Sequence record: KT454805
DNA: 64,000 bases
DNA from: Escherichia phage phiSUSP1
Reading direction: 5' to 3' (one strand)
Within the stretch, counting starts at the first letter, position 1, and each line of letters opens with the position of its first letter. The notes below the pieces were generated by a model. It was given only the letters and a program-made list of their open reading frames with translations. It searched no databases and was not told where the DNA came from. Shown here one piece after another: positions 53,309 through 60,374 of this stretch. Position numbers and translations under genes: made by a program.

Positions 53309-54193
53309 TTAACCTCCTACTTCGTTAACCACAACAGTAGCTGCATTAGAAGTCACAGAACCACCTGCACCAGTAACTACACAAGTGTATGTTCCGGCAT
53401 CATCAGCAGTTGTTGCATCCTCTTTTGTGTAAGTCGCTGAAGTTGCTCCAGAGATGTTATCAGCACCTTTCTTCCACTGGTAACCAGTTGCTCCAGTAGC
53501 CACGATGCTCAACTCAAGAGTGTCACCTTCAGTGATTTCAACGTTTTGCGGCTGCGTAGTGATTACTGGCAAAGCATTCACTGTCACAGTTGCAGCATTT
53601 GACGTTACAGTTGCACCACCTTCACCAGTTACTACGCAGGTGTAAGAACCAGCATCAGCAGGTACTACATTTGATTTGGTGTAAGTTGCAGATATTGCAC
53701 CGGAGATGTTACTTGCGCCTTTCTTCCACTGATAACCCGTAGCACCAGTTGCAACAATACTCAGAGTCAGCGTTCCACCCTCATTAACGGTCTGGTTAGT
53801 TGGCTGTGTAGTAATCACTGGAGGAACTACAGAATCTTTCAGTTTTGCGTTGAGCATTGAGAAAGGTTTAACTCTTGCAAGCCATTCACAGTAAACGGTG
53901 TCAACATCTTTACCGTTGATGATTGCATACTGCAAATCCATGAAGAAATCAGCAGTTCTCATTTGAGCACCAACGCTGTAAAGAAGTTCTGAACTGAATG
54001 GGACTGTGTAGGCTGGCTCATAAGCAAAGTTGGTAACCTCTGCAATATCTGCTTCAGGCCAAGGTGAACTGTAAGTCAGTGGGAGAATAGCTTCCTGATA
54101 TGTTCTGAAGTCATATCTTTTACCAGCTTTAACGTTCGCAATAAAACCTTTAACGAACTCTTTAAAATCTGGATATGTTTTTGCCTTAATCAT
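53309..54193 (-). CDS. Ig-like domain protein (possible virion decoration/adhesion)
   Basis: two tandem ~80-aa repeats (VITTQP...GATGYQWKKGA...YTCVVTG...VTSNAATVTVN); N-domain paralogous to ORF 54186..54560. Confidence 0.55.
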   Translation of the reverse strand: MIKAKTYPDFKEFVKGFIANVKAGKRYDFRTYQEAILPLTYSSPWPEADIAEVTNFAYEPAYTVPFSSELLYSVGAQMRTADFFMDLQYAIINGKDVDTVYCEWLARVKPFSMLNAKLKDSVVPPVITTQPTNQTVNEGGTLTLSIVATGATGYQWKKGASNISGAISATYTKSNVVPADAGSYTCVVTGEGGATVTSNAATVTVNALPVITTQPQNVEITEGDTLELSIVATGATGYQWKKGADNISGATSATYTKEDATTADDAGTYTCVVTGAGGSVTSNAATVVVNEVGG

Positions 54194-56186: not shown

Positions 56187-56266
56187 TTTAAAAGATGTTG
56201 ACAGGCTCTACGAAGATGTTCTAAAGTCTGTCACATCAAACAACAAATGAGAGAAGAGAGTAAAAT

Positions 56267-57682
56267 ATGAGCGATTTATTTAAACATTCGCACCTCCATG
56301 CAGGGCGAACTGAAAATGGTGCTGTTAACCATACATCATCAATGTCTGCCTTGGTAGACTTCTATAAAGCTGCTGGCTCAAGCCGTGGCAATGTAGAGAT
56401 TCTCCCAGACTTGTTCTACAAAGCTTTGCGTGAGGATGTTGATGTAGCAGTTCGTATTTTACTGCATATGCGAGATGTACGAGAAGGTATGGGTGAGCGT
56501 AAAGCTTTCCGAACTGTCCTCTTACAAGCAATCGAAGATAACATTCTGGATTCTTTCCAAGTTCTTCGTATCATGGATAAGATTTCTGAATTAGGTCGTT
56601 TCGATGACTTCAAAATCTTCGTAGGTACTCGTTATGAGACAGATGCTTTCAAGCATTTAGAAGCAGCCTTGTTAGACCCTGATACAGCAGGTTTAGCAGC
56701 TAAGTGGTTACCACGAGTAAAACCACGCCACAAAAAGTTTGTAAAACGTTTCTGTAAGTTTGCAAACTTGAGTGAGAAAGAATACCGTACACTGTTATCA
56801 GCTTTGTCTGATACCGTTGAACAGAAAATCTCTACAAATAACTTTGGTGAGATTGACTACAGCAAGATTCCTTCACTGGCTGCTGCACGTTACCAAAAAC
56901 TGTTCAGCAAGAAAGACGGTGAACGTTATACAGCTTACGTTGAAGCTTTATCCAAAGGTGAGGCCAAGATTAATGCTGGTGCTGTGTACCCATACGATAT
57001 TCTGAAGTCCGTTAATCATGGTAAAGCAAGTGTTGCAAACGAACAGTGGAAAGCATTACCAAACTGGATGGCAGAAGGTGAAAACATTCTGTGCATGTCA
57101 GATGTATCAGCGTCTATGACTTGGCAGACATTTGGTTCTGTAACTGCTCTTGATATTGGCCTGTCTTTGGCGTTATATGTCTCAGAACGCAATACAGGGT
57201 GCTTTAAAGATGAGTTAATGGTTTACTCCACAAGACCTCACTTTATCACTCTGAGTGGTGATTTACAGACTCGTATGCGTCAAGTAATGAGTCATGTTGA
57301 GTATGGTTCAACAAACCTGCAAGCAGCATTTGACCGTATTCTTGAAATTGGTGTAAGAAATGGCTTGACTCAGGTAGCAATGCCAAGTAAGCTTATTATC
57401 TTCTCTGATATGGAGTTCAATCAGGTTGACGGTGCAAATGGTTGTACAAACTTCGAAGCAATTCGTAGTAAGTACGAAAAAGCTGGATACGAAATGCCAC
57501 AACTGGTATTCTGGTACTTAGCAAACCGTAATGGTACTTGCGAAGTGTCTGTTAAGGATAATGGTGTAGCAATGGTATCAGGTTTCTCTCCAGCCACTTT
57601 AAAAGCTCTGCTTGGTGGTGAGAAGTTTGACCCAATCAGCGTAATGCTCAAAGCAGTAATGATTGACCGTTACATCTGGTAA
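56267..57682 (+). CDS. Ro60-like protein (TROVE-like N-domain plus vWA domain with MIDAS)
   Basis: AVYPYDILKSVNHG, CMSDVSASM, LIIFSDMEFN, VSGFSPATLKAL align with human Ro60 RIHPFHILIALETY, AVDVSASM, FIVFTDNETF, MCGFDTGALDVI. Confidence 0.7.
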   Translation: MSDLFKHSHLHAGRTENGAVNHTSSMSALVDFYKAAGSSRGNVEILPDLFYKALREDVDVAVRILLHMRDVREGMGERKAFRTVLLQAIEDNILDSFQVLRIMDKISELGRFDDFKIFVGTRYETDAFKHLEAALLDPDTAGLAAKWLPRVKPRHKKFVKRFCKFANLSEKEYRTLLSALSDTVEQKISTNNFGEIDYSKIPSLAAARYQKLFSKKDGERYTAYVEALSKGEAKINAGAVYPYDILKSVNHGKASVANEQWKALPNWMAEGENILCMSDVSASMTWQTFGSVTALDIGLSLALYVSERNTGCFKDELMVYSTRPHFITLSGDLQTRMRQVMSHVEYGSTNLQAAFDRILEIGVRNGLTQVAMPSKLIIFSDMEFNQVDGANGCTNFEAIRSKYEKAGYEMPQLVFWYLANRNGTCEVSVKDNGVAMVSGFSPATLKALLGGEKFDPISVMLKAVMIDRYIW

Positions 57683-57699: not shown

Positions 57700-57728
57700 A
57701 TTGACAATCTGCTCGATACCCTTTAATA
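57700..57728 (+). promoter_or_regulatory. sigma70-like promoter for tRNA cluster
   Basis: TTGACA-N17-TAATAT; -35 flanked by inverted repeat AAGGGTAT...ATACCCTT. Confidence 0.6.
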
Positions 57729-57848
57729 TGTTCTACATAGAAACGAAATCGAGAGTTTTTCTAAGATACTGAAAAATATTTTAAAAAAGTTCTTGACAAC
57801 CACTAAAAAATAATGTTAAAGTGGTTACATAGAGTTTGAAAAGATTAT

Positions 57849-57932: not shown

Positions 57933-58010
57933 GTTCCAGTAGACAAATTGGTAAAGTCACCACACTTTCAATGTGGAGTTTTGAGGGTTCAAGTCCCTTC
58001 TGGAACGCCA
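57933..58010 (+). tRNA. tRNA-Glu (anticodon TTC)
   Basis: acceptor GTTCCAG/CTGGAAC, T-arm GAGGGTTCAAGTCCCTT, loop CTTTCAA. Confidence 0.75.
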
Positions 58011-58017
58011 AATTTGA

Positions 58018-58082
58018 CAGAAGACCAAGTACAGCAAATAACTTTACTTTTCGCGCATAGAAAACTTAAAAGTTTGGTCTGG
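58018..58082 (+). ncRNA. inverted-repeat-bounded inter-tRNA element E1
   Basis: CAGAAGACCAA...TTGGTCTGG, 7-bp closing stem AGACCAA/TTGGTCT. Confidence 0.4.
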
Positions 58083-58093
58083 TCATAAAAGTT

Positions 58094-58170
58094 CGCGGGT
58101 ATAGAGAAAGGGCGTCTCACATGTCTCATTAGCATGGTATCGGCAGGTTCGACTCCTGCACCCGCCTCCA
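58094..58170 (+). tRNA. tRNA-Met/Ile2 (anticodon CAT)
   Basis: T-arm GCAGGTTCGACTCCTGC, loop CTCATTA, 3' ACCCGCC-T-CCA; 5' boundary uncertain. Confidence 0.6.
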
Positions 58171-58176
58171 AATTTG

Positions 58177-58239
58177 CAGAAGACCGTTTACAGCAATCTC
58201 AAAAATTTTTATCGGAAAAAATGAAAAGATACGGTCTGG
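58177..58239 (+). ncRNA. inverted-repeat-bounded inter-tRNA element E2
   Basis: CAGAAGACCGT...ACGGTCTGG, 7-bp closing stem. Confidence 0.4.
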
Positions 58240-58252
58240 CAATACTAAACAT

Positions 58253-58329
58253 GGTGAGGAAGCACATAAGGCATGTGCGGTCGGCTGTTAACCGAATGGT
58301 ATAGGGTTCGAATCCCTAACTCACCGCCA
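58253..58329 (+). tRNA. tRNA-Asn (anticodon GTT)
   Basis: D-arm GCAC-ATAAGGCAT-GTGC, loop CTGTTAA, T-arm TAGGGTTCGAATCCCTA, CCA encoded. Confidence 0.75.
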
Positions 58330-58399
58330 AGATTTGGGAGAGAAGCGTAATGCTCACCGATTTGTAAGGTGTAAGTCCTTAGCCTGAATAGAATAAAAT

Positions 58400-58487
58400 G
58401 CGTCGTTATCCCGTAGATGGAAGCGGTGGTGACTGTAAATCACTTGTCATTATGACTCGGTAGGTTCGACTCCTTCACGGCGCACCA
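58400..58487 (+). tRNA. tRNA-Tyr (anticodon GTA), class II
   Basis: 88 nt with long variable arm; loop CTGTAAA; acceptor GCGTCGT/ACGGCGC. Confidence 0.7.
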
Positions 58488-58493
58488 AATAAA

Positions 58494-58571
58494 GGTTATG
58501 TAGTTTAATCTGGTTAAAATACCTCACTGTCACTGAGGAAGATGAGGGTTCAAATCCCTTCGTAACCGCCA
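58494..58571 (+). tRNA. tRNA-Asp (anticodon GTC)
   Basis: anticodon arm CCTCA-CTGTCAC-TGAGG; T-arm GAGGGTTCAAATCCCTT. Confidence 0.75.
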
Positions 58572-58632
58572 ATTTTGAGAGGGCTTTCTAGCCCCTCCCT
58601 TAAAGAGTTCTTACGAGTATTCTTTAAAGGAG

Positions 58633-58709
58633 CAGAAGACCAAATTCAGCAAGCCAACTTAAAAAATTTCAAGCCAATTTAATTTTGAAAAATTTAAAAC
58701 TTGGTCTGG
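58633..58709 (+). ncRNA. inverted-repeat-bounded inter-tRNA element E3
   Basis: CAGAAGACCAA...TTGGTCTGG closing stem. Confidence 0.4.
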
Positions 58710-58722
58710 CTCAACAAATTTA

Positions 58723-58849
58723 CAGAAGACCGTTTACAGCAAGTATAAAACAATCTATTTCTCTGGTAAAGAAAAGGAGAAGGTTCGATTCCTTCACACG
58801 TTACGGCGTGTTGGTGTAATGGTAGCACTTAAGATAAACAACGGTCTGG
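58723..58849 (+). ncRNA. structured element E4 with tRNA-like T-arm (Y-RNA-like candidate)
   Basis: closing stem AGACCGT/ACGGTCT; internal hairpins GAAGG-TTCGATT-CCTTC (T-arm-like), ACACG-TTACGG-CGTGT, GTGT-AATGGTA-GCAC (D-arm-like); no anticodon arm. Confidence 0.4.
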
Positions 58850-58998
58850 TAATCCTCTTTGCAGTGACTTATGGAGCTAAATGTCGTCCCATGAGTGCCG
58901 ATGAATTTCCTTAGCATGATTCTAGATTAGCTTAATAGGAAATGACTCTACAAACCCTTTAGCAAGGTTTGCGTAGGTTACTGCAAAGATGATTTAAT

Positions 58999-59247: not shown

Positions 59248-59276
59248 TTGACATGGAGATGTGACTACTTTATAGT
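59248..59276 (+). promoter_or_regulatory. sigma70-like promoter inside tRNA cluster
   Basis: TTGACA-N17-TATAGT. Confidence 0.6.
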
Positions 59277-59509
59277 AGCCTTAGTTTTCGTTAGCGTAGC
59301 GTCTATTTTGCAAACTTAAAAATAAATGCAAACGATAATGCTTTTCTGGCAGTAGCTTAATAGGCTAAACACCAGTGAGGTCTTCCAATTCCTCATCAAA
59401 GAATTTGGCGTACTCGCCCACGGTATGATTAATAAGGTGGGCAACATTCTAAAGGGTATCCCGTATGGGGCTTGGCTTAAATGCAATGAGTACCCTTTAA
59501 AATGTTAAT

Positions 59510-59593: not shown

Positions 59594-59715
59594 GGTCAAG
59601 ACAACACTAGTAAGCCATCTGGATACATGTTAACAGATGTACGAAAGTCGGAAAGTTGCTGAAGGTTAGCTACCTTCGAGAGTAAGTAGGTTCGACTCCT
59701 ACCTTGACTGCCAAA
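59594..59715 (+). ncRNA. atypical tRNA-like element (possible pseudogene or insertion-containing tRNA)
   Basis: perfect T-arm GTAGG-TTCGACT-CCTAC and 3' CTTGACT-G-CCA pairing with GGTCAAG ~120 nt upstream; no canonical D-arm. Confidence 0.3.
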
Positions 59716-59884: not shown

Positions 59885-59955
59885 AGGGGTGAGCTAAGGC
59901 AGCAATAGAGTCTCCAAAATTCTTGATTAGAGTTCGAATCTCTACACCCCTGCCA
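59885..59955 (+). tRNA. tRNA-Trp (anticodon CCA), short D-arm
   Basis: acceptor AGGGGTG/CACCCCT, loop CTCCAAA, T-arm TAGAGTTCGAATCTCTA; 71 nt. Confidence 0.6.
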
Positions 59956-59969
59956 GAATAGGTACTTGT

Positions 59970-60374
59970 ATGAAACTTTGTAGAAAATGCTCACAAGAAA
60001 AACCTTTAAGTTGTTTTCATAAGCGTGGTAATGGATACCAGTCAGTATGCAAAGATTGCAAATCCAAATACTCTTCTAAGAAGTATCAAGAAGACCCAAC
60101 TTATAAAGCTAAAAGGAAAATTAGGGCGGTAGCTGACAGAAAAAGAAACAGAGAGTTTCTTAACCGATACAAAAGAATCTGCAAATGCAGAGTTTGTGGT
60201 GAATCTGAACCAGTAGCATTAGACTTCCACCATTTAGACCCAAATGAAAAAGACTTTGAACCTAGCAATTTAAAGACTTACTCTAGAGGGACTATTAAGA
60301 GAGAAGTTAGAAAATGTGTTGTACTGTGTTCTAACTGTCATAGGAAAGTTCATGCAGGACTGTTAGAGGTTTAA
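59970..60374 (+). CDS. HNH endonuclease inside tRNA cluster
   Basis: Cys pairs CRKC...CKDC...CRVC and DFHHLDPN...LCSNCHRKVH HNH motif. Confidence 0.7.
   Translation: MKLCRKCSQEKPLSCFHKRGNGYQSVCKDCKSKYSSKKYQEDPTYKAKRKIRAVADRKRNREFLNRYKRICKCRVCGESEPVALDFHHLDPNEKDFEPSNLKTYSRGTIKREVRKCVVLCSNCHRKVHAGLLEV

What the first reader, a model, noticed from the sequence alone, without database searches (positions are those of the whole stretch)
56267..57682. Ro60-like (TROVE + vWA) protein encoded at the head of the tRNA / structured-RNA cluster
Seen: the 471-aa protein has a C-terminal vWA-like domain with MIDAS motif DVSASM and several blocks that align by eye with human Ro60 (YPYDILKSVNHG ~ HPFHILIALETY; CMSDVSASM ~ AVDVSASM; LIIFSDMEFN ~ FIVFTDNETF; VSGFSPATLKAL ~ MCGFDTGALDVI), preceded by a ~270-aa helical N-domain. 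It sits ~170 bp upstream of a tRNA cluster that also contains tRNA-like non-tRNA elements. Established: Ro60/Rsr proteins bind Y RNAs, bacterial Y RNAs carry tRNA-like modules, and Y RNA genes are typically adjacent to rsr. Inference: this phage may encode its own Ro60/Y-RNA ribonucleoprotein, with the Y-RNA partner among the structured elements at 58.0-59.0 kb or the leaders at 59.3-59.5, 60.5-60.65 and 61.1-61.2 kb.
Basis: partly seen in the sequence, partly recalled or inferred. Interest (0 to 1): 0.8.

Follow-up and report, generated by a model that had tools for sequence, protein, structure and literature searches.

The report
Phage Ro60-like protein with partner RNAs
A Felix-O1-like phage encodes a protein with the predicted fold of the Ro60 autoantigen, followed by four small structured RNAs of an apparently undescribed family. 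This family sits beside the same gene in phages of three bacterial phyla and closely resembles the orphan 'Class I' RNAs of Dictyostelium.

Summary

No canonical Y RNA is present. Four elements lie just downstream at 58015-58852. Each has a terminal helix closed by G-C, a single-stranded U(A/U)CAGCAA motif, a variable interior and a CUG 3' end. The fourth carries a circularly permuted tRNA-like module, in the arm order reported for YrlA Y RNAs.

The same signature abuts the gene in distant phages:
- 74 hits on the gene strand against 2 on the other, with 1-9 in shuffles.
- 45 of 60 hits lie within 500 nt of the gene.
- It occurs in Listeria, Staphylococcus, Campylobacter and Mycobacterium phages, and in loci without tRNAs.
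- A T4 control gave nothing.

The elements also match Rfam's Dictyostelium Class I RNA model below its threshold. A model built only from Dictyostelium RNAs picks them out.

The best reading is a Ro60/Y-RNA-like ribonucleoprotein built from a different protein family and a different RNA family. Binding is untested.

The parts
56198..56227 (+). sigma-70-like promoter ahead of the gene (TTGACA-18-TAAAGT)
   Evidence: Consensus scan, 10 of 12 matches. This is a pattern match only.
56267..57682 (+). Ro60-like protein gene, 471 aa. DUF2828 helical N-domain (~1-265) plus DUF7788 vWA/MIDAS domain (~270-455).
   Evidence: ORF. Pfam DUF2828 E 5e-29 and DUF7788 E 3e-41. PHROG 850 'RNA-binding protein' E 3e-178. 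AF2 model pLDDT 89.7. Ro60 is the best structural match. hhalign to Ro60 gives E 5.5e-6.
57701..57822 (+). two sigma-70-like promoters (57701-57729, 57793-57822) between the gene and the RNA/tRNA array
   Evidence: Consensus scan, 10 of 12 matches each. Pattern match only.
58015..58085 (+). E1, short CAGCAA RNA. Outer helix UGAC/GUCA, AGA/G internal loop, inner helix AGACCAA/UUGGUCU, motif GUACAGCAA. Lies between tRNA-Glu and tRNA-Met.
   Evidence: Sequence. Fold. Pattern found 4 times against 0.14 expected. CM R1 43.4 bits, but this is a seed sequence. Rfam RF01414 17 bits.
58174..58242 (+). E2, short CAGCAA RNA. Outer helix UUGC/GCAA, inner helix AGACCGU/ACGGUCU, motif UUACAGCAA. Lies between tRNA-Met and tRNA-Asn.
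   Evidence: Fold z-score -2.5. Rfam RF01414 26.9 bits with alignment. R1 46.2 bits, seed sequence.
58630..58712 (+). E3, short CAGCAA RNA. Outer helix GAGC/GCUC, inner helix AGACCAA/UUGGUCU, motif AUUCAGCAA.
   Evidence: R1 44.3 bits, seed sequence.
58720..58852 (+). E4, long CAGCAA RNA. Outer helix UUAC/GUAA, inner helix AGACCGUU/AACGGUCU, motif UUACAGCAA. The interior is a circularly permuted tRNA-like module.
   Evidence: Seven orthologs in Felix-like phages show compensatory changes in the acceptor-like hairpin (ACACG/CGUGU, ACUCG/CGAGU, ACCCUUC/GAAGGGU) and in the anticodon-like arm. R1 gives a partial hit of 20 bits.
58754..58829 (+). Permuted tRNA-like module inside E4: anticodon-like arm 58754-58778 (7-nt loop CUGGUAA), T arm 58779-58795, acceptor-like hairpin 58796-58811, D-like arm 58813-58829.
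   Evidence: MFE fold. Rfam tRNA model positions 9-63 match 58742-58795 at 28.8 bits. ARAGORN calls no tRNA here.

Best explanation
The gene encodes a ring-shaped Ro60-like RNA-binding protein. It has an alpha-helical solenoid closed by a vWA/MIDAS domain and belongs to the DUF2828/DUF7788 family. The four small RNAs just downstream (E1-E4) are its dedicated noncoding partners and play the role that Y RNAs play for Ro60.

Inferred mechanism:
- The RNAs are transcribed with the tRNA array and released by the tRNA-processing enzymes, since they sit 4-10 nt from flanking tRNAs.
- The invariant module is the protein-binding site. It comprises the terminal helix closed by G-C, the 3' CUG, and the single-stranded U(A/U)CAGCAA beside the 5' strand.
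- The variable interior is the effector end. In E4-type members it is a permuted tRNA mimic that recruits or decoys tRNA-recognising enzymes.
- The particle acts on tRNA or other noncoding RNA during infection, in quality control, repair, or protection from host nucleases.

Shown: the fold, the RNA family, and its gene linkage. Inferred: binding, biogenesis and function.
For: Protein:
- hhalign to Ro60/Rsr gives E 5.5e-6.
- The MIDAS residues are invariant.
- Homologs are already annotated 'Ro-like RNA binding protein' in mycobacteriophages.

RNA:
- Four copies share one architecture, and their outer and inner helices differ by compensatory changes.
- In 65 loci around 38-47%-identical homologs, a strict signature occurs 74 times on the gene strand, 2 times on the other, and 1-9 times in shuffles.
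- 45 of 60 hits lie within 500 nt of the gene.
- Model R1 gives 83 of 85 hits on the gene strand. In the 64-kb window it hits only E1-E4.
- The elements abut the gene in Listeria, Staphylococcus, Campylobacter and Mycobacterium phages (24-35 bits). In Faith1 the layout is gene, three RNAs, then a terminator-like hairpin with a T run, as read from the sequence.
- The same layout occurs in an independent contig.
- Six loci have the RNA beside the gene but no tRNA within 5 kb.
- A T4 control with a tRNA cluster and no such gene gave at most 14.6 bits.

Precedent:
- Ro60 genes have Y RNAs within 2 kb, including one tRNA-like and one simple RNA (PMC4201824).
- Phage phiLo Ro60 binds two adjacent Yrl RNAs (PMC12135203).
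- RNA-repair genes lie nearby in some phages: RtcB, an RNA ligase and an Appr-1-p enzyme.
Against: - No binding or expression data exist.
- Pfam TROVE is not hit, and the N-domain aligns to Ro60 only by predicted structure.
- The RNAs show no Y-RNA CGAA run on reading the sequences (no pattern search was run) and hit no Rfam Y RNA model.
- About a third of the distant loci have no R1 hit at E<=0.01. Phages phiM19 and 7t3 have none.
- Single-sequence fold z-scores are modest, -1.2 to -2.5.
- The seed alignment was chosen with a stem filter, so its covariation figures are circular.
- Linkage could reflect co-transcription or cis-regulation rather than a stable particle.
Confidence: 0.6

Rival explanations
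1. The elements are cis-acting signals rather than trans-acting partner RNAs. They could be processing sites, stabilisers or autoregulatory operators of the transcript that carries the gene and the tRNAs. The protein or a host RNase would recognise them, and no stable particle would form.
For: They lie in the same transcription unit and on the same strand as the gene, either upstream (16) or downstream (29) within 500 nt. In Campylobacter and Listeria phages they sit in what would be the 5' leader of the gene.
Against: - They occur in tandem arrays of up to five with very different interiors.
- Many carry complete tRNA-like modules, some with an encoded CCA.
- In the window they are separated from the gene by two promoter-like sites and two tRNAs.
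- The look-alike Dictyostelium Class I RNAs are abundant free small RNAs (PMC7919456).
Confidence: 0.17
2. The RNAs are real and gene-linked, but the protein does not bind them. It would be a vWA/MIDAS protein-interaction module working with something else, and the RNAs would work on their own, for example as tRNA decoys against host anticodon nucleases.
Against: The linkage survives across Proteobacteria, Firmicutes and Actinobacteria phages, whatever the gene order and even without tRNAs. The only full-length structural relatives are RNA-binding Ro60 proteins with adjacent partner RNAs.
Confidence: 0.13
3. The elements are decayed tRNA genes and spacer repeats of the tRNA cluster, or DNA-level repeats such as promoters, terminators or homing-endonuclease sites. 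They would have no function as RNA.
For: E4 contains tRNA arms, and some records annotate 'tRNA-OTHER' or pseudo-tRNAs in this region. An HNH endonuclease gene lies in the cluster.
Against: - The strand bias is 74:2.
- Helices are kept by compensatory and G-U changes while the interiors diverge.
- The elements are present where no tRNA is near and absent from the T4 tRNA cluster.
- The same 9-nt motif is kept from mycobacteriophages to Felix-like phages.
Confidence: 0.04

Closest known systems
Bacterial and phage Ro60 (Rsr) with Y RNAs (YrlA/YrlB, Yrn1/2; phiLo Ro60 with Yrl1/2)
   Same: - The protein has the same predicted ring of helical repeats plus a vWA/MIDAS domain.
- One to several small RNA genes lie within 2 kb of the protein gene.
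- In each RNA the 5' and 3' ends pair.
- One RNA has a tRNA-like module ordered T arm, acceptor hairpin, D arm, and the others are simple hairpins.
- RNA ligase or RtcB genes are sometimes nearby.
   Different: - The protein belongs to different Pfam families (DUF2828+DUF7788 rather than TROVE+PF25045) and is ~60 residues shorter, with ~13% identity.
- The RNA shows no GNCGAAN0-1G/CGAA motif or bulged Ro-binding helix on reading the sequences. It has a G-C-closed helix plus single-stranded UUACAGCAA.
- The tRNA-like module keeps its own anticodon-like arm.
- There are no Rfam Y RNA hits.
Dictyostelium Class I RNAs (Rfam RF01414)
   Same: - Both have a terminal ~6-bp helix starting with G and ending C-U-G, preceded by A.
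- UUACAGCAA directly follows the 5' strand.
- The interior is variable (20-100 nt) and the RNAs are multi-copy.
- 25 of 34 D. discoideum RNAs pass the signature derived from phages.
- Models of each family find the other.
   Different: - Scores stay below Rfam's gathering score (17-29 against 41.5 bits).
- The phage RNAs have one nucleotide fewer between helix and motif.
- The phage RNAs have no DUSE promoter, and many carry tRNA-like interiors.
- The known Dictyostelium partner is the RRM protein Rnp1A.
- Whether dictyostelids have a DUF2828 protein could not be checked.
Phage T4 stable RNAs C and D (species 1 and 2) in the tRNA cluster
   Same: They are small stable RNAs of unknown function encoded among phage tRNA genes and processed with them.
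   Different: T4 has no DUF2828 homolog among the hits. The T4 region gives no R1 match (best 14.6 bits).
Circularly permuted tRNA genes and other tRNA mimics (two-piece tmRNA, M. smegmatis YrlA)
   Same: The interior of E4-type members has the T arm and acceptor 3' strand ahead of the acceptor 5' strand and D arm. Some members encode CCA after the acceptor strand (L017 4378-4509).
   Different: The module is embedded in a conserved stem-plus-motif carrier. No evidence was found for aminoacylation or for a tag reading frame in these elements.

Membership tests
Ro60 / TROVE protein family | Sequence match to the Pfam TROVE domain (PF05731) | tested here: not met
   hmmscan at E<=1 gives only DUF2828 and DUF7788. 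True Rsr proteins carry PF05731+PF25045. phmmer and hmmsearch against PDB find no Ro60.
Ro60 / TROVE protein family | Remote sequence homology to Ro60 by profile-profile comparison | tested here: inconclusive
   hhalign gives Prob 85.6%, E 5.5e-6, but only for residues 233-451 against Ro60 306-531, which is the last TROVE helix plus the vWA domain. The N-terminal 230 residues are not aligned.
Ro60 / TROVE protein family | Helical-repeat domain plus vWA domain with the overall Ro60 fold | tested here: met
Ro60 / TROVE protein family | MIDAS motif (DxSxS...T...D) in the vWA domain | tested here: met
   D279, S281, S283, T349 and D381 are invariant in 40 homologs. DVSASM aligns to Ro60 DVSASM.
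Ro60 / TROVE protein family | Binds Y RNA and misfolded RNA | not testable with these tools
   This needs immunoprecipitation or gel shift.
YrlA-type bacterial Y RNA | Encoded within ~2 kb of the Ro60 gene, same strand | tested here: met
   E1-E4 start 333-1038 nt after the stop codon. The same adjacency holds in distant phages.
YrlA-type bacterial Y RNA | 5' and 3' ends pair into a stem, and the upper domain has T arm, acceptor-like hairpin and D arm in that order | tested here: met
   Met for E4 and for long members in L017, L037, L068, L082 and L085. E1-E3 lack the module, as YrlB does.
YrlA-type bacterial Y RNA | Conserved GNCGAAN0-1G motif and Ro-binding bulged helix; match to Rfam Y RNA models | tested here: not met
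   There is no Rfam Y_RNA or YrlA hit at E<=10. No CGAA was seen on reading the E1-E4 sequences; no dedicated pattern search was run.
Dictyostelium Class I RNA (RF01414) | Short terminal stem with 5' G paired to the C of a 3' CUG(U), preceded by A | tested here: met
   All four elements read AAG-helix...helix-CUGG. The features are as listed in PMC7919456.
Dictyostelium Class I RNA (RF01414) | Conserved 11-nt motif (CCUUACAGCAA-like) next to the 5' strand of the stem | tested here: met
   UUACAGCAA is identical in E2 and E4, and CAGCAA is invariant. The motif sits one nucleotide closer to the helix than in Dictyostelium.
Dictyostelium Class I RNA (RF01414) | Score at or above Rfam's gathering threshold (41.5 bits) | tested here: not met
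   Scores are 17-28.8 bits. My Dictyostelium-only model gives 15-22.5 bits, though 10 of 11 hits are these elements.
Dictyostelium Class I RNA (RF01414) | DUSE promoter ~60 nt upstream; dictyostelid genome | tested here: not met
   This is a phage of enterobacteria. Its promoters are bacterial-type.
Canonical tRNA | Cloverleaf in normal order, recognised by tRNA finders | tested here: not met
   ARAGORN calls nothing in 58572-58998. Rfam tRNA gives only a partial match of 28.8 bits, below the 29-bit threshold. The arm order is permuted.

The most novel reading that the evidence does not exclude
The phage CAGCAA RNAs and the Dictyostelium Class I RNAs are one RNA family, or two convergent ligands of one protein family. 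Their shared module (G-C-closed helix, UUACAGCAA, CUG) would be the recognition site of DUF2828 Ro60-like proteins. These proteins occur in phages and giant viruses of protists, and the literature reports them in eukaryotes. Class I RNAs, thought unique to dictyostelids and of unknown mechanism, would then be the Y-RNA-like partners of a second, unrecognised Ro60-like ribonucleoprotein lineage spanning viruses and eukaryotes.
Probability: 0.2. Interest if true: 0.92.

Novelty: new variant of a known kind. Interest (0 to 1): 0.8.

Why it matters
- It would add a second protein lineage and a new RNA family to the Ro60/Y-RNA type of particle. The gene is present in about 1.4% of sequenced phages (702 of 50,697 records), infecting Proteobacteria, Firmicutes and Actinobacteria.
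- It gives a concrete and easily tested ligand for a large 'domain of unknown function' family.
- It explains unannotated gaps, and some spurious ORFs, in phage tRNA clusters.
- It ties phage tRNA clusters to RNA surveillance or repair.
- It offers the first lead outside dictyostelids for Class I RNAs, whose mechanism has been open since 2004.

Tried and rejected
- Canonical Y RNA: Rfam scans of 54-64 kb and of 57990-58900 at permissive E-values gave no Y_RNA or YrlA hit.
The first looks tmRNA-like instead.
- Direct sequence searches of PDB with the protein or its profile: no Ro60 hit.
- Simple k-mer enrichment across distant loci: dominated by A/T runs and coding words, so uninformative.
- Rfam at gathering threshold on 13 distant loci: only tRNAs and tmRNAs.
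- A conserved protein neighbour: none is consistent. Neighbours include NAD-salvage genes, an RNase H-like gene, DUFs and an HNH endonuclease.
- Whether dictyostelids encode DUF2828: the afdb50 fold library was unavailable. Supplements of three Dictyostelium papers gave nothing usable. The paper listing the four Class I-binding proteins is not held.
- Covariation statistics on the seed alignment are not used as independent evidence, because the seeds were picked with a stem filter.
Full report
WHERE WE ARE. The window is from a Felix-O1-like myovirus (Ounavirinae, Suspvirus). Region 55.5-60 kb is 96.5% identical to Escherichia phage SUSP2, and 280 phage records match at 80% identity or more. 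The ORF at 56267-57682(+) encodes 471 aa. It ends 167 nt before the first of 25 same-strand tRNA genes. RefSeq calls the SUSP2 ortholog 'RNA-binding protein'.

THE PROTEIN: SEQUENCE. Pfam assigns DUF2828 (E 5e-29) and DUF7788 (E 3e-41), with no TROVE hit at E<=1. PHROG 850 'RNA-binding protein' matches end to end. Sequence searches of PDB with the protein or with a 40-member profile find no Ro60.

THE PROTEIN: STRUCTURE. An AlphaFold2 model built on that alignment is confident (pLDDT 89.7, pTM 0.89). It has a helical N-terminal ~265 residues and an alpha/beta C-terminal domain.
- Foldseek against PDB returns Ro60/TROVE chains as the top 12 hits (human, Xenopus, Deinococcus Rsr, Thermus phage phiLo). 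Each aligns over ~520-550 columns with E 4e-9 to 3e-7 and TM up to 0.66. After them comes a four-log gap to vWA-only hits.

THE PROTEIN: PROFILE COMPARISON. I validated a human Ro60 sequence against PDB 9nen_A. I then built a 16-member Ro60/Rsr alignment and ran hhalign. It gave Prob 85.6% and E 5.5e-6, aligning residues 233-451 to Ro60 306-531. The five MIDAS positions are invariant in the family. The protein is Ro60-like in predicted fold and homologous in its C-terminal half, but it is not a Pfam TROVE member.

DISTRIBUTION OF THE PROTEIN. The family is in 702 of 50,697 phage records, including Escherichia, Salmonella, Mycobacterium, Vibrio, Listeria, Staphylococcus, Campylobacter, Enterococcus, Bacillus and Aeromonas phages. 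Mycobacteriophage records already label it 'Ro-like RNA binding protein'. It also occurs in giant viruses of protists: Pithovirus, CroV, ChoanoV1, Marseillevirus, Mimivirus and Bodo saltans virus.

THE RNAS IN THE WINDOW. No Rfam Y RNA or YrlA model matches anywhere in 54-64 kb. Reading 57.6-60 kb showed four copies of AGAAGACC-NNN-U-N-CAGCAA followed by ...GGUCUGG. That is 4 matches in the window against 0.14 expected.

All four fold the same way:
- an outer 4-bp helix that differs in every copy but always pairs (UGAC/GUCA, UUGC/GCAA, GAGC/GCUC, UUAC/GUAA);
- an AGA/G internal loop;
- an inner helix AGACCnn/nnGGUCU, whose variable pairs also switch (AA/UU against GU/AC);
- single-stranded U(A/U)CAGCAA;
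- a variable interior.

E1 and E2 are wedged between tRNAs with 4-10 nt to spare. This suggests release by the tRNA-processing enzymes, which is an inference.

E4 (58720-58852) holds a complete tRNA-like set of arms in circularly permuted order: anticodon-like arm, T arm, acceptor-like hairpin, D-like arm. Felix-like orthologs keep these helices through compensatory changes while the loops drift. This is the arm order described for YrlA Y RNAs, in which M. smegmatis YrlA is even cut by RNase P (PMC4201824).

IS THE RNA TIED TO THE GENE? I fetched 80 loci around homologs from IMG/VR. Of these, 65 are distant, at 38-47% protein identity. I then scanned them with a strict signature: N, then G, then 5-7 further paired bases, then 1-4 nt, then CAGCAA, then the complementary strand, then C, then N', then G.
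- The signature occurs 74 times on the gene strand and 2 times on the opposite strand. Ten dinucleotide shuffles gave 1-9 hits for both strands together. 42 of the 65 loci have at least one hit.
- Of 60 hits outside the gene, 45 lie within 500 nt of it, 29 downstream and 16 upstream.
- A covariance model (R1) built from 35 short members finds 85 matches at E<=1 in 739 kb. 83 of them are on the gene strand. In the whole 64-kb window it finds only E1-E4.
- The seed set was chosen with a stem filter, so its covariation score is not independent evidence. The strand bias, the shuffles, the clustering and the controls are.

INDEPENDENT TESTS.
- A Logan contig carrying another homolog has five tandem elements between the gene and its tRNA cluster. 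Three of them have tRNA-like interiors.
- Listeria phage LMTA-94 has three elements just upstream of the gene. Staphylococcus phage 6ec has three just downstream. Campylobacter phage Los1 has one just upstream. Scores are 24-35 bits.
- Mycobacterium phage Faith1 has the layout gene, short RNA, tRNA-like RNA, short RNA, then a terminator-like hairpin with a T run, as read from the sequence.
- Bacillus and Enterococcus phages give weaker hits in the right gap. Phages phiM19 and 7t3 give none.
- Six loci have the RNA beside the gene and no tRNA within 5 kb. The RNA therefore follows the gene, not the tRNA cluster.
- Fifty kilobases of T4, which has a tRNA cluster and the stable RNAs C and D but no such gene, give nothing above 14.6 bits with filters off.

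THE CLASS I RESEMBLANCE. The only non-tRNA Rfam family that keeps hitting these elements is RF01414, the Class I RNA of Dictyostelium.
- Scores are 26.9 and 17 bits for E2 and E1, and 28.8, 28.2 and 24.7 bits for elements in L034, L021 and L038. All are full-length matches and all are below the 41.5-bit threshold.
- Kjellin et al. define Class I RNAs by an AAG start, a ~6-bp terminal stem whose 5' G pairs with the C of a 3' CUGU, and an 11-nt motif next to the 5' strand. They report the class as unique to dictyostelids (PMC7919456).
- Their D. discoideum sequences read GUUGAC-CUUACAGCAA...GUCAAC-UG. A typical phage element reads (A)G-GAUGC-UUACAGCAA...GCAUC-C-UG.
- 25 of 34 D. discoideum RNAs pass the signature I had derived from phages, with one extra nucleotide between helix and motif.
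- A model built only from 23 Dictyostelium RNAs (R2), run on 879 kb of phage DNA, gave 11 hits at E<=1. Ten of them are the gene-strand elements already defined.
- Individually weak, the resemblance is reproducible in both directions.

I could not establish whether dictyostelids encode a DUF2828 protein. The AlphaFold-database library was unavailable, and the supplements I searched held nothing usable. The known Class I partner is the RRM protein Rnp1A. Three other pulled-down proteins are not named in any text I could read.

HOW IT MOST LIKELY WORKS. I commit, at about 0.6, to a Ro60/Y-RNA-like particle. The DUF2828 protein binds the invariant helix-plus-UUACAGCAA module, and the variable or tRNA-like end engages other factors.

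The fold, the RNA family and the linkage are shown. Binding, biogenesis by tRNA-processing enzymes, and function are inferred. Possible functions are tRNA or noncoding-RNA surveillance, repair, or shielding from host nucleases such as PNPase, as reported for phiLo Ro60 (PMC12135203).

Occasional neighbours fit this picture and echo the bacterial rsr-yrlBA-rtcBA operon, but they are not universal. They are RtcB in Listeria phage, an RNA ligase in 7t3, an Appr-1-p processing enzyme in phiM19, and tmRNA genes in three metagenomic loci.

The rivals are a cis-acting processing or regulatory element, an RNA that works without the protein, and tRNA debris or DNA repeats. The last is essentially excluded by strand bias and compensatory changes.

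NOVELTY. The Ro-like nature of the protein is already hinted at in database annotations, so that part is not new. I found no description of the RNA family. It is absent from Rfam 15. It is also absent from the papers I could search, including the Felix O1 genome paper and the reports on bacterial and phage Y RNAs.

I rate the finding a new variant of a known kind. It works like Ro60/Y RNA but uses a different protein family and a different RNA recognition module. It also has an unexpected look-alike in an orphan eukaryotic RNA class.

Noticed in passing
window 59248-59509: Between tRNA-Ile and tRNA-Arg lies a strong sigma-70-like promoter (TTGACA-17-TATAGT, 59248-59276). It is followed by a tmRNA-like resume and tag region, AAAUAAAU-GCAAACGAUAAUGCUUUUCUGGCAGUAGCUUAA (59328-59360), encoding ANDNAFLAVA*. 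Rfam tmRNA_permuted gives 30.6 bits (threshold 47) and ARAGORN calls no tmRNA. The tag is conserved as ANDN[A/V]FLAVA* in all Felix-like loci, with synonymous GAT/GAC and TAA/TGA changes. This may be an unrecognised tmRNA-like gene.
   Followed up: partly
window 58857-58987: A ~130-nt element between E4 and tRNA-Lys is closed by CUUUGCAGU/ACUGCAAAG. It contains UAGCUUAAUAGG, the same 12-mer that ends the tmRNA-like tag region at 59.35 kb. It was not analysed.
   Followed up: no
window 59594-59713: A 120-nt tRNA-like sequence has acceptor strands GGUCAAG/CUUGACU, an encoded GCCA end and a T arm (GUAGGUUCGACUCCUAC). Its interior is far too long for a normal tRNA. Neither ARAGORN nor Rfam reports it.
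   Followed up: no
window 59885-59952: Rfam tRNA matches here above threshold (32.6 against 29 bits), but ARAGORN does not call it. It lies just upstream of an HNH homing-endonuclease gene (59970-60374, PHROG 2255). The SUSP2 alignment ends at about 59873, so this segment differs between the two phages.
   Followed up: no
window 58402-58482: A weak tRNA-like sequence (22.8 bits) with anticodon GUA and a long extra arm. Related records annotate it as tRNA-Tyr or pseudo-tRNA(GTA), and the Felix O1 paper lists a 'Pseudo (Tyr)' tRNA at the equivalent position.
   Followed up: no
window 58134-58304 (SUSP2 gp132, L001 7135-7305): RefSeq annotates a 56-aa 'hypothetical protein' that overlaps tRNA-Met, element E2 and tRNA-Asn. 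It is almost certainly a spurious ORF laid over RNA genes.
   Followed up: partly
L086 5807-7018; L093 920-2128; L092 1154-1717; L057, L058, L069: RNA-repair or ribosome-rescue genes lie near the DUF2828 gene in other phages. They are RtcB ('tRNA-splicing ligase') in Listeria phage LMTA-94, an RNA ligase in Salmonella phage 7t3, an Appr-1-p processing enzyme in Sinorhizobium phage phiM19, and tmRNA genes in three metagenomic loci.
   Followed up: partly
L017 4378-4509 and 4752-4881: Some long members encode CCA right after the acceptor 3' strand of the permuted tRNA-like module (for example ...ACUCCCCGCCA). They might be cut and matured like M. smegmatis YrlA or like permuted tRNA genes.
   Followed up: no
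window 53309-54193 (-): A 294-aa protein has two near-identical ~90-aa Ig-like repeats (PVITTQP.N..V.EG.TL.LSIVATGATGYQWKKG...). It is annotated 'tail protein' in SUSP2.
   Followed up: no
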